Positions 8,341 through 8,398 of a stretch of DNA of 64,000 bases are shown here, piece by piece (the stretch's first letter is position 1; each line of letters begins with the position of its first letter). The position numbers and the translations under genes were made by a program. The notes beneath the pieces were generated by a model. That model saw only the letters and a list, made by a program, of their open reading frames with translations. It made no database searches and was not told where the DNA came from. Source of the DNA: a virus (Duplodnaviria > Heunggongvirae > Uroviricota > Caudoviricetes); the IMG/VR virus record IMGVR_UViG_3300042875_000419; one strand, written 5' to 3'.

Positions 8341-8398
8341 ACAGAATCCGCTTTTTTTCATTGACAGTGAAATTTTTTAATTGCTGAATGGATTCTAA
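8341..8398 (-). ncRNA. Y-RNA-like RNA D with anticodon-like hairpin (GUC)
   Basis: Stem AGAAUCC/GGAUUCU, AUUCAGCAA motif, inner UUUCA-CUGUCAA-UGAAA. Confidence 0.7.

What the first reader, a model, noticed from the sequence alone, without database searches (positions are those of the whole stretch)
8341..8398. Y-like RNA D displays a tRNA-Asp(GUC) anticodon stem-loop
The insert is UUUCA-CUGUCAA-UGAAA, again a 5-bp stem with a canonical anticodon loop, here GUC. tRNA-Asp(GUC) is at 8919-8993. Two independent copies with exact anticodon-arm geometry make coincidence less likely and suggest a swappable cassette of anticodon mimics.
Basis: partly seen in the sequence, partly recalled or inferred. 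Interest (0 to 1): 0.78.

Follow-up and report, generated by a model that had tools for sequence, protein, structure and literature searches.

The report
Phage small RNA displaying an anticodon arm
This 54-base stretch is a real, strongly conserved small RNA gene in a phage tRNA cluster: a constant "handle", probably held by a Ro60-like phage protein, carries a look-alike of a tRNA anticodon arm whose three "anticodon" letters differ between closely related phages.

Summary
On the minus strand, 8396-8343 reads AGAAUCC-AUUCAGCAA-linker-UUUCA-CUGUCAA-UGAAA-linker-GGAUUCU.

It is not chance and not the tail of the neighbouring HNH gene, which was my first idea. The same element lies between tRNA-Ile and tRNA-Tyr in at least five related phage contigs that have no HNH gene.

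It belongs to a family with a 7-bp closing stem, an NUUCAGCAA motif, a variable insert and a GUU tail. My covariance model found 228 copies in 1.3 Mb of related loci, all on the strand of a DUF2828/DUF7788 gene. I folded that protein and its best structural matches are Ro60 proteins.

Among 70 distinct short members, both helices covary (99% paired). The loop has the tRNA signature: C32 in 52, U33 in 66, A37 in 60 and A38 in 61.

In RNA D orthologues the scaffold is almost invariant, but the triplet changes: GUC here; GUU, GUA, GGA and GAA elsewhere. So this is a swappable anticodon display rather than a dedicated tRNA-Asp mimic.

Function is untested. My best guess is a bait or decoy for proteins that read anticodon loops.

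This scan has noted the same family on other DNA (51 notes). I found no published description.

The parts
8343..8396 (-). RNA D core, closing stem to closing stem (54 nt)
   Evidence: Sequence. Covariance model R1 scores 8339-8400 at 75.5 bits, E 4e-14.
8390..8396 (-). 5' strand of the closing stem, AGAAUCC
   Evidence: Pairs with 8343-8349. In the family, 6 of the 7 closing-stem pairs show compensatory changes and 100% of cells are paired.
8381..8389 (-). Single-stranded handle motif AUUCAGCAA
   Evidence: The C, G, C, A, A positions are invariant in 70 of 70 distinct short members.
8356..8372 (-). Anticodon-arm look-alike: UUUCA / CUGUCAA / UGAAA, with GUC at 8365-8363
   Evidence: All 5 stem pairs covary in the family. 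Loop signature: C32 in 52/70, U33 in 66/70, A37 in 60/70, A38 in 61/70.
8343..8349 (-). 3' strand of the closing stem, GGAUUCU
8339..8342 (-). Conserved 3' flank GUUG; the first three bases, GUU, are invariant in the family
   Evidence: G71, U72 and U73 are each present in 70/70.
8397..8400 (-). Conserved 5' flank UUUU
8402..8734 (-). 110-aa HNH endonuclease gene inserted between tRNA-Ile and RNA D (the whole insertion is about 8403-8782)
   Evidence: Pfam HNH match is weak, E 0.017. An 81%-identical homologue follows tRNA-Ile in L009. Five syntenic relatives have no HNH gene.
8783..8857 (-). tRNA-Ile(GAU), the ancestral upstream neighbour
8243..8330 (-). Unusual long-arm tRNA-Tyr(GUA), the downstream neighbour, 12 nt after the element
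   Evidence: Read by eye. Rfam tRNA-Sec model gives 33.6 bits, below threshold. ARAGORN calls tRNA-Tyr at the same place in L026, L029 and L065.
8919..8993 (-). Phage tRNA-Asp(GUC)
3416..4891 (-). Gene for the Ro60-like protein (DUF2828 + DUF7788), the presumed partner
   Evidence: Pfam. AlphaFold model has pLDDT 68.6; its top 12 PDB matches are all Ro60/TROVE proteins, E 4e-7 to 6e-4.
7295..7354 (-). Sister element RNA B, displaying CUUGUAA (UGU)
   Evidence: 78.3 bits.
7446..7508 (-). Sister element RNA C; its insert is not an anticodon arm
   Evidence: 49.5 bits.
4869..5204 (-). Two long-insert family members just upstream of the Ro60-like gene (4997-5204 and 4869-4984)
9572..9599 (-). Nearest strong sigma-70-like promoter upstream; the likely start of the transcript that includes RNA D
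   Evidence: 11 of 12 consensus positions matched. No promoter-like or terminator-like site lies at the element itself.

Best explanation
RNA D is a gene for a small non-coding RNA of about 54-62 nt. It belongs to a large phage family built from a constant handle and a variable insert. The handle is a 7-bp closing stem, the single-stranded motif NUUCAGCAA, A-rich linkers and a GUU tail.

Shown here:
- The family exists and is strand-specific.
- Both helices covary.
- In the short members the insert is a 5-bp/7-nt hairpin with the anticodon-loop signature C32-U33-NNN-A37-A38.
- RNA D sits at an ancestral position between tRNA-Ile and tRNA-Tyr.
- Its scaffold is more conserved than the flanking tRNA genes, while positions 35-36 change between close relatives.
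- The neighbouring DUF2828/DUF7788 protein has a Ro60-like fold.

Inferred:
- The RNA is transcribed with the tRNAs and cut out by the tRNA-processing enzymes.
- The Ro60-like protein holds the handle, as Ro60 holds Y RNAs.
- The exposed anticodon-arm look-alike is offered to a protein that reads tRNA anticodon loops.

The role I think most likely (about 0.3 on its own) is bait, competitor or sensor for host anticodon-directed nucleases. The fast-changing triplet would then reflect an arms race. A second possibility (about 0.15) is capture of a tRNA-modifying enzyme or synthetase. One candidate is Tgt, whose U33-G34-U35 signal is present in this copy.
For: - Shared frame in five window elements, with covarying stems.
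- Pattern scan of 80 DUF2828 loci: 205 hits on the gene's strand and 13 on the other.
- Model R1: 228 hits at E <= 1e-3 in 1.32 Mb, all on the gene's strand. In the 99%-complete relative G001 there are only 4 hits, all within a 3-kb interval on the minus strand that includes the tRNA region matching the window.
- Covariation in 70 distinct short members: 99.2% of cells paired against 70.9% when shuffled and 35-48% when slid; 11 of 12 pairs have compensatory changes.
- Loop signature. Enrichment: 31 of 54 against 0.9 in shuffles.
- Synteny without HNH in L020, L022, L026, L029 and L065.
- Across six orthologues 56 of 70 element columns are invariant, while 63 of 97 columns of the adjacent tRNA-Tyr region vary. 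Window versus L022 shows 4 differences in 173 columns, 2 of them at positions 35-36 (P = 4e-4, post hoc).
- Further orthologues found by RNA pattern alone carry GUU or GUA. The three with enough downstream sequence have the DUF2828 gene 3-4 kb downstream on the same strand.
- In the UGU class the triplet is kept in 17 distinct sequences despite changed stems and linkers, so the triplet is under constraint there.
- The protein has a Ro60-like fold.
- Published precedent: phage phiLo Ro60 binds phage-encoded Y-like RNAs (PMC12135203), and YrlA Y RNAs mimic tRNA (PMC4201824).
- The commonest displayed triplets are UGU 18, UUU 10, GGA 9 and GUU 7. UGU, UUU and GUU are the three tRNA targets of the PARIS nuclease AriB, and the U36-A-A-U39 motif seen near its cleavage site is present in 34 of 69 (PMC12409363). 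This is a lead only.
Against:
- The inner hairpin is thermodynamically marginal.
- G001 has deleted RNA D together with the HNH gene, so it is dispensable in at least one lineage.
- Variation at positions 35-36 could be plain lack of constraint rather than selection; the linkers vary too.
- Some family members (RNA C and the long-insert members) carry no anticodon arm.
- The arm copies neither the phage tRNA-Asp stem nor its exact loop.
- AriB is modelled to need D-loop contacts as well, which a bare arm lacks. The host and its defences are unknown.
- The alignment used for the pair counts was fitted to the model, which favours that structure.
Confidence: 0.55

Rival explanations
1. It is a real member of the handle family and a partner of the Ro60-like protein, but the inner hairpin is only a structural or effector-tethering module (for example towards PNPase, as in Ro60/Y RNA/PNPase complexes). 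Its anticodon-like look would be a leftover of descent from tRNA, or a by-product of stable U-turn loops in AU-rich RNA. The triplet would have no meaning.
For: - The triplet is not conserved among RNA D orthologues.
- The linkers vary at a similar rate.
- Several loops share UGGAA in different registers, which suggests a motif other than an anticodon.
- RNA C and the long-insert members lack the arm.
- Phage phiLo Ro60 and its Y-like RNAs form complexes with host PNPase (PMC12135203).
Against: - The geometry is exactly 5 bp plus 7 nt in at least 14 different stem sequences.
- U33 is present in 66/70 and A37 in 60/70.
- UGU is kept in 17 distinct sequences despite diverged stems.
- 43 of 61 displayed triplets match a tRNA gene in the same locus, where 38% would be expected if triplets were uniform. 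Shared AU bias confounds this comparison.
Confidence: 0.25
2. It is a cis-acting processing or stabilising element of the polycistronic tRNA transcript (an entry site or barrier for RNase E, RNase P or exonucleases) with no role as a free RNA.
For: - It lies 5-6 nt after tRNA-Ile CCA in relatives and 12 nt before tRNA-Tyr.
- The invariant UUUU and GUU flanks resemble cleavage contexts.
- It has no promoter of its own.
Against: - Members also lie outside tRNA spacers, directly upstream of the Ro60-like gene.
- The invariant CAGCAA motif and the link to one protein family across Vibrio phage KVP40 and Salmonella phage Felix O1 fit a protein-bound RNA better.
- Most tRNA spacers in the array lack the element.
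Confidence: 0.08
3. It is a chance hairpin, or the 3' tail or terminator of the mobile HNH endonuclease cassette.
For: - It starts 5 nt after the HNH stop codon.
- It is missing together with the HNH gene from G001.
- The fold z-score is 0.12.
- The closest HNH homologue (L009) has no such hairpin.
Against: - The element is present without any HNH gene at the same tRNA-Ile/tRNA-Tyr site in L020, L022, L026, L029 and L065.
- G001 keeps 13 nt of the HNH leader, so its gap is a secondary deletion.
- The scan calls no terminator-like site here.
- The family statistics argue against chance.
Confidence: 0.02
4. It is a minimal 'armless' tRNA that is charged and used in translation.
For: It has a 7-bp acceptor-like stem plus an anticodon arm, with linker lengths reminiscent of armless mitochondrial tRNAs (my own knowledge, not tested).
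Against: - It has no CCA or discriminator base; the 3' flank is an invariant GUU.
- It has no D or T arm.
- Neither ARAGORN nor the Rfam tRNA model calls it.
- The invariant CAGCAA motif has no counterpart in tRNA.
Confidence: 0.02

Closest known systems
Ro60 (Rsr/TROVE) with Y RNAs, especially bacterial and phage YrlA (Rfam RF02553; Chen et al. 2014, PMC4201824) and Thermus phage phiLo Ro60 with Yrl1/Yrl2 (PMC12135203)
   Same: - Small RNA genes lie on the same strand as, and a few kb from, a gene for a Ro60-fold protein.
- The two RNA ends are joined by a stem, with a conserved motif next to it.
- The variable part imitates tRNA.
- Several RNAs serve one protein gene.
- A phage-encoded Ro60/Y-like RNA particle has been shown experimentally for phiLo.
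   Different: - The motif is NUUCAGCAA, not GNCGAAN0-1G / CGAA.
- No Rfam YrlA match appears even at E <= 10.
- YrlA imitates the T, D and acceptor parts and lacks an anticodon arm; RNA D is the reverse, a bare anticodon arm.
- At about 54 nt it is much shorter.
- It is embedded in a tRNA array.
- The protein matches Pfam DUF2828/DUF7788, and the Ro60 likeness is seen only by fold.
Class I RNAs of dictyostelid social amoebae (Rfam RF01414; Kjellin et al. 2021, PMC7919456)
   Same: - Length is 42-65 nt.
- A short closing stem starts with G and joins the two ends.
- An 11-nt motif ending in ACAGCAA sits next to the 5' strand.
- The rest is A/U-rich and variable, and the 3' end reads CUG.
- RNA D matches the full-length model at 39.6 bits, E 6e-5.
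   Different: - The score is below the gathering threshold of 41.5 bits.
- The model misses four other short family members in L030.
- Class I RNAs are eukaryotic, have their own upstream promoter element, are bound by an RRM protein (Rnp1A) and are reported as unique to Dictyostelia.
- I treat this as a shared design, not as shown homology.
Phage tRNA genes that bypass tRNA-cleaving defences (T5 tRNA-Lys/Thr/Asn against PARIS AriB; PMC12409363)
   Same: - Both are encoded in a phage tRNA cluster.
- The most frequently displayed triplets in the family (UGU, UUU, GUU) are AriB's three targets.
- The U36-A-A-U39 motif near the AriB cleavage site is common in the family.
   Different: - The T5 molecules are complete, functional tRNAs that replace cleaved host tRNAs.
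- RNA D is not a tRNA and could act only as a bait or competitor.
- This copy has C36, not U36.
Anticodon-arm mimicry in the E. coli thrS mRNA operator
   Same: An isolated hairpin imitates a tRNA anticodon arm and is read by a tRNA-binding protein.
   Different: The thrS operator is a cis-regulatory part of an mRNA. RNA D is a separate small RNA on a protein-binding handle.

Membership tests
Phage CAGCAA-handle RNA family (uncatalogued; defined here by model R1) | 7-bp closing stem joining the ends, with compensatory changes between members | tested here: met
   AGAAUCC pairs with GGAUUCU. In the family, 6 of the 7 pairs have compensatory changes and 100% of cells are paired.
Phage CAGCAA-handle RNA family (uncatalogued; defined here by model R1) | NUUCAGCAA motif directly 3' of the 5' stem strand, a U-run before the element and GUU after it | tested here: met
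   AUUCAGCAA is at 8389-8381, UUUU at 8400-8397 and GUUG at 8342-8339. The invariant columns are listed.
Phage CAGCAA-handle RNA family (uncatalogued; defined here by model R1) | Same strand as, and near, a DUF2828/DUF7788 gene | tested here: met
   RNA D lies 3.5 kb upstream of 3416-4891 on the minus strand. All 228 hits are on the gene's strand. Loci found by RNA pattern alone also carry the gene where the contig allows.
tRNA anticodon arm (geometry only) | 5-bp stem and 7-nt loop with Y32, U33, R37 | tested here: met
   UUUCA / C-U-GUC-A-A / UGAAA. The family shows the same signature.
tRNA anticodon arm (geometry only) | A specific tRNA-Asp identity (GUC) conserved in orthologues, or an arm copied from tRNA-Asp | tested here: not met
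   Orthologues carry GUU, GUA, GGA or GAA. The phage tRNA-Asp arm is UUGGC-UUGUCAC-GCCAA.
YrlA / bacterial Y RNA (RF02553) | Match to the Rfam model; GNCGAAN0-1G motif; T-arm/D-arm tRNA-like domain | tested here: not met
   There is no RF02553 hit at E <= 10. The motif differs, and RNA D has no T or D arm.
YrlA / bacterial Y RNA (RF02553) | Encoded next to a Ro60 orthologue | tested here: met
   Met by fold only. The top 12 PDB matches are Ro60/TROVE proteins, TM 0.35-0.54, from a model with pLDDT 68.6. There is no sequence match to any PDB chain.
YrlA / bacterial Y RNA (RF02553) | Physical binding by the Ro60 protein | not testable with these tools
   This needs RIP/CLIP or EMSA.
Dictyostelid Class I RNA (RF01414) | Score at or above Rfam's gathering threshold | tested here: not met
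   39.6 bits against 41.5. Four sister elements in L030 are not hit.
Dictyostelid Class I RNA (RF01414) | Short closing stem plus a conserved motif next to the 5' strand, variable remainder, about 60 nt | tested here: met
   Alignment to the full model, positions 1-56; features as described in PMC7919456.
tRNA gene | Cloverleaf recognised by ARAGORN or Rfam RF00005 | tested here: not met
Intrinsic terminator | G+C-rich hairpin followed by a U-run | tested here: not met
   The scan calls no site at 8339-8400. The stems are A/U-rich.

The most novel reading that the evidence does not exclude
The anticodon-like loop is a fast-evolving bait. Phages of this group would keep an ultra-conserved Ro60-bound scaffold and swap only the two or three 'anticodon' letters (GUC, GUU, GUA, GGA, GAA at one locus; UGU and UUU at others). 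The swaps would track the tRNA specificities of host anticodon nucleases, such as PARIS-type, colicin E5-type or PrrC-type enzymes. That would make this an RNA-based, programmable counter-defence (or damage sensor) working alongside the phage's replacement tRNAs.
Probability: 0.25. Interest if true: 0.85.

Novelty: new variant of a known kind. Interest (0 to 1): 0.72.

Why it matters
Ro60/Y RNA particles are known from animals, bacteria and a few phages, but what their tRNA-like parts are for is still open. Here a Ro60-like protein found in about 700 sequenced phages, including KVP40, Felix O1, Listeria P100 and many mycobacteriophages, is linked to very small RNAs. These RNAs show nothing but a tRNA anticodon arm on a constant handle.

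At one fixed locus the displayed triplet changes between near-identical phages. That gives a simple, mutable readout for testing what the particle recognises. It also ties the system to the current question of how phages cope with tRNA-cleaving defences.

Members in cultured phages make the idea directly testable: KVP40 at 43.9 bits, and a weaker Felix O1 candidate at 21.5 bits.

Tried and rejected
1. My first reading was that the hairpin is the 3' tail of a 431-bp HNH insertion, because G001 lacks exactly 8339-8769 and the closest HNH homologue (L009) has no hairpin. I rejected it. Five relatives have the element between tRNA-Ile and tRNA-Tyr with no HNH gene. G001 also retains 13 nt of the HNH leader, so its gap is a later deletion.

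2. An exact search for the 54-mer in IMG/VR found nothing. A pattern that left the loop and linkers free found 12 loci.

3. megablast and blastn against cultured phages matched only tRNA genes.

4. Fold energy gave no signal.

5. The Rfam gathering scan found only tRNAs. A scan of eight loci was uninformative because tRNA rows filled the listing. The Class I model did not hit the sister elements in L030.

7. Sequence search of the protein against PDB chains found nothing; only the fold search showed the Ro60 likeness.

8. I looked for RNA-repair enzymes in G001. There was no RtcB and no Rnl2-type ligase. The Rnl1 search is uninformative because its control did not ring. So I found no support for an RNA-ligase repair platform in this phage group.

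9. Comparing displayed triplets with tRNA genes of the same locus gave 43 of 61 matches against 38% uniform coverage. I treat this as weak because both sets share an A/U bias.

Full report
**What is there.** The window is part of a large T4-like phage genome. About 30 tRNA genes lie on the minus strand between 3136 and 12754. On that strand the finding reads UUUU-AGAAUCC-AUUCAGCAA-UUAAAAAA-UUUCA-CUGUCAA-UGAAA-AAAAGC-GGAUUCU-GUUG, at 8400-8339. The element begins 5 nt after the stop codon of a 110-aa HNH endonuclease ORF (8734-8402). It ends 12 nt before an unusual tRNA-Tyr(GUA) at 8330-8243, which ARAGORN misses.

**Chance?** Taken alone, the hairpin is unremarkable. The MFE is -6.8 kcal/mol with z = 0.12. 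The proposed two-helix fold (-5.0) ties with the MFE of the core (-5.2), and the inner-stem pair probability is about 0.3. Hairpins of this geometry occur 261 times in the window. The case for function rests on comparison with other sequences.

**A false start.** The nearest held relative is G001, a 166-kb virus record rated 99% complete. It matches both sides at 95-97% identity but lacks exactly 8339-8769, that is, the HNH gene plus the element. The closest HNH homologue (81% identity, L009) also follows tRNA-Ile but has no hairpin after it. I therefore first read the element as the tail of a mobile HNH cassette.

That reading is wrong. In L020, L022, L026/L028/L031, L029 and L065 the same element sits 5-6 nt after tRNA-Ile(GAU) and directly before tRNA-Tyr(GUA), with no HNH gene. 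So tRNA-Ile / RNA D / tRNA-Tyr is the ancestral order. In the window an HNH gene entered between tRNA-Ile and the element, leaving the element and its AGUUUU flank intact. G001 keeps 13 nt of the HNH leader and then jumps to the tRNA-Tyr leader, which marks a later deletion that removed both.

**The family.** All five read U-run, AGRNNNN, RUWCMGCAA, insert, complementary 7-mer, GUUR, and their stems differ in a compensatory way.

- A mechanical scan of 80 contigs fetched through the neighbouring DUF2828 protein gave 205 such elements on the gene's strand and 13 on the other.
- A covariance model (R1) built from 35 short members found 228 matches at E <= 1e-3 in 1.32 Mb. Every one was on the gene's strand. 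RNA D scored 75.5 bits.
- In the whole G001 record there are only four matches, all on the minus strand between about 136.6 and 139.5 kb, an interval that includes the tRNA region matching the window.
- Orthologues found purely by an RNA pattern carry the DUF2828 gene 3-4 kb downstream wherever the contig reaches that far.

**Is the anticodon-arm geometry real?** Of 54 unique short inserts, 31 contain a 5-bp/7-nt hairpin with U33 and R37. Dinucleotide shuffles give 0.91 +/- 0.93, with a maximum of 4 in 500, and 14 different stem sequences are involved.

On 70 distinct short members aligned to the model, 99.2% of pair cells are standard pairs. The figure is 70.9% after shuffling and 35-48% when partners are slid by 1-3 columns. 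11 of 12 pairs show compensatory changes, including all five inner pairs. The alignment was fitted to the model, which favours that structure, but the effect is large.

The loop columns read C32 in 52/70, U33 in 66/70, position 34 as U or G in 69/70, A37 in 60/70 and A38 in 61/70. That is the tRNA anticodon-loop signature. The handle positions C, G, C, A, A of the motif, the UU before the stem and the GUU after it are invariant in 70/70.

**RNA D across relatives.** In six syntenic orthologues 56 of 70 element columns are invariant. That includes both stems, the motif, U33, G34 and A38. By contrast, 63 of 97 columns of the adjacent tRNA-Tyr region vary. The loop triplet, however, changes:
- GUC in the window.
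- GGA in L022.
- GAA in L020.
- GUU in L026, L029, L065, L102, L105 and L106.
- GUA in L104 and L112.

Window and L022 differ at 4 of 173 columns, and 2 of these are positions 35-36 (P = 4e-4, a post hoc test). So the frame is under strong constraint, while positions 35-36 are either free or driven to change. GUC is not a conserved identity. Most variants (GUU, GUA, GUC) keep U33-G34-U35.

The UGU class, to which RNA B at 7295-7354 belongs, behaves differently. It keeps CUUGUAA in 17 distinct sequences while stems and linkers change. There the triplet is clearly constrained.

**The partner protein.** The ORF at 3416-4891 on the minus strand matches Pfam DUF2828 and DUF7788. It has no sequence match in the PDB. 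An AlphaFold model (pLDDT 68.6, pTM 0.56) is a helical-repeat domain followed by an alpha/beta domain. Its 12 best PDB matches are all Ro60/TROVE proteins over the full length. They include Thermus phage phiLo Ro60, Deinococcus Rsr and Xenopus Ro60, with E from 4e-7 to 6e-4 and TM 0.35-0.54. Homologues occur in 701 cultured phage records, some annotated 'Ro-like RNA binding protein'.

**Cultured-phage members.** Model R1 finds a short member in KVP40 (L100:5033-5098, 43.9 bits) and a weaker one in Felix O1 (L101:14376-14444, 21.5 bits).

**How it probably works.** No promoter-like or terminator-like site lies at the element. The nearest strong minus-strand promoter-like site is at 9599-9572. 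The RNA is therefore most likely made as part of the tRNA precursor and released by the enzymes that trim the neighbouring tRNAs (inferred).

Published Ro60/Y RNA work offers the analogy: YrlA mimics tRNA (PMC4201824), and phiLo Ro60 binds phage Y-like RNAs and assembles with host PNPase (PMC12135203). By that analogy the Ro60-like protein should hold the stem-plus-CAGCAA handle and leave the insert exposed (inferred). What reads the exposed arm is unknown.

I favour a role in the conflict over tRNAs. The commonest triplets in the family are UGU 18, UUU 10, GGA 9 and GUU 7. UGU, UUU and GUU are the three tRNAs cleaved by the PARIS nuclease AriB, and U36-A-A-U39, the motif near its cut site, occurs in 34 of 69 members (PMC12409363).

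That is a coincidence worth testing, not evidence. AriB is modelled to need D-loop contacts too. This copy has C36. The host is unknown. I found no RtcB or Rnl2-type RNA ligase in G001, so nothing points to a ligase-based repair platform.

**Comparison with known families.** The system works like Ro60 with Y RNAs, but RNA D fails the YrlA membership tests: there is no Rfam hit, the motif differs, and there is no T or D arm.

RNA D also gives a full-length, just sub-threshold match to dictyostelid Class I RNAs (39.6 against 41.5 bits). Those RNAs share the design of a short closing stem, a motif ending in ACAGCAA and a variable remainder (PMC7919456). The model does not detect four sister elements, so I report this as a resemblance only.

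I found nothing in print on DUF2828 in phages, and nothing on handle RNAs that display anticodon arms. Notes of this scan describe the same family in other genomes, 51 notes in all. Those notes are unpublished AI observations; I used them as leads and tested their claims here.

**Verdict.**
- The structural interpretation, an anticodon-arm display on a swappable cassette, is supported.
- The specific tRNA-Asp identity is not conserved.
- Function is untested.

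Noticed in passing
window 8243-8330 (-): A long-variable-arm tRNA-Tyr(GUA) that ARAGORN does not call here. The Rfam tRNA-Sec model gives 33.6 bits, below threshold. The window, L020 and L022 share this odd version, while L026, L029 and L065 have a different tRNA-Tyr at the same place that ARAGORN does call.
   Followed up: partly
window 8339-8782 (-) and G001:C1:~140358: History of the locus. An HNH gene was inserted between tRNA-Ile and RNA D. In G001 a 431-bp deletion then removed the HNH gene and RNA D, leaving a 13-nt scar of the HNH leader (GTATAAATCTCAT).
   Followed up: yes
window 6202-6708 (-): A 168-aa ORF inside the tRNA array matches Pfam PF04308 (RNaseH_like, E 7e-14). In KVP40 the gene right after the Ro60-like gene (KVP40.0299) is annotated with the same family. 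It may be a further component of the system.
   Followed up: no
L022:1090-1159, L029:7281-7350, L070:8096-8167: Short family members of the UUU/UCU class have the arm UUUGA-CUUUUAA-UCAAA (CUUCUAA in L029). Positions 36-41 read UAAUCA, the same letters as the AriB cleavage site reported for E. coli tRNA-Lys(UUU) (PMC12409363). The window's own tRNA-Lys (9211-9284) has C39 instead.
   Followed up: partly
L101:14376-14480 (Salmonella phage Felix O1) and L100:5033-5098, 4323-4417 (Vibrio phage KVP40): Cultured phages carry family members. Felix O1 has a candidate with AUACAGCAA followed at once by the 5' part of a second one (stem strand plus UUACAGCAA), both downstream of tRNA-Asp. KVP40 has a short member after ORF KVP40.0314, and several features annotated 'tRNA-Pseudo' that may be long-insert members.
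   Followed up: partly
alignment A3, columns 12 and 63: The base after the 5' stem strand and the base before the 3' stem strand are associated. A12 always occurs with C63 (11 of 11). G12 occurs with A63 (30) or U63 (10). This may be a non-canonical closing pair, or it may only reflect sub-family structure.
   Followed up: no
window 10930-10902, 10686-10659, 9599-9572, 8242-8214 (-): Four near-consensus sigma-70-type promoter-like sites (11 of 12 positions matched) punctuate the tRNA array on the coding strand. The total number of such sites is not above the shuffled expectation.
   Followed up: no
window 9285-9437, 7742-7860, 8858-8918 (-): Other tRNA spacers are closed by long perfect or near-perfect stems that enclose unrelated inserts. 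They lack the CAGCAA motif and are not hit by model R1. They look like a separate kind of spacer RNA.
   Followed up: no
window 8134-8207 (-): ARAGORN calls a tRNA-Met(CAU) with the anticodon at position 30. It scores only 18.7 bits with the Rfam tRNA model, so it is an atypical or decayed tRNA.
   Followed up: no
window 5779-6018 (-): A 79-aa ORF inside the tRNA array gives a partial Cpn10 (GroES-like) match, E 5e-6.
   Followed up: no
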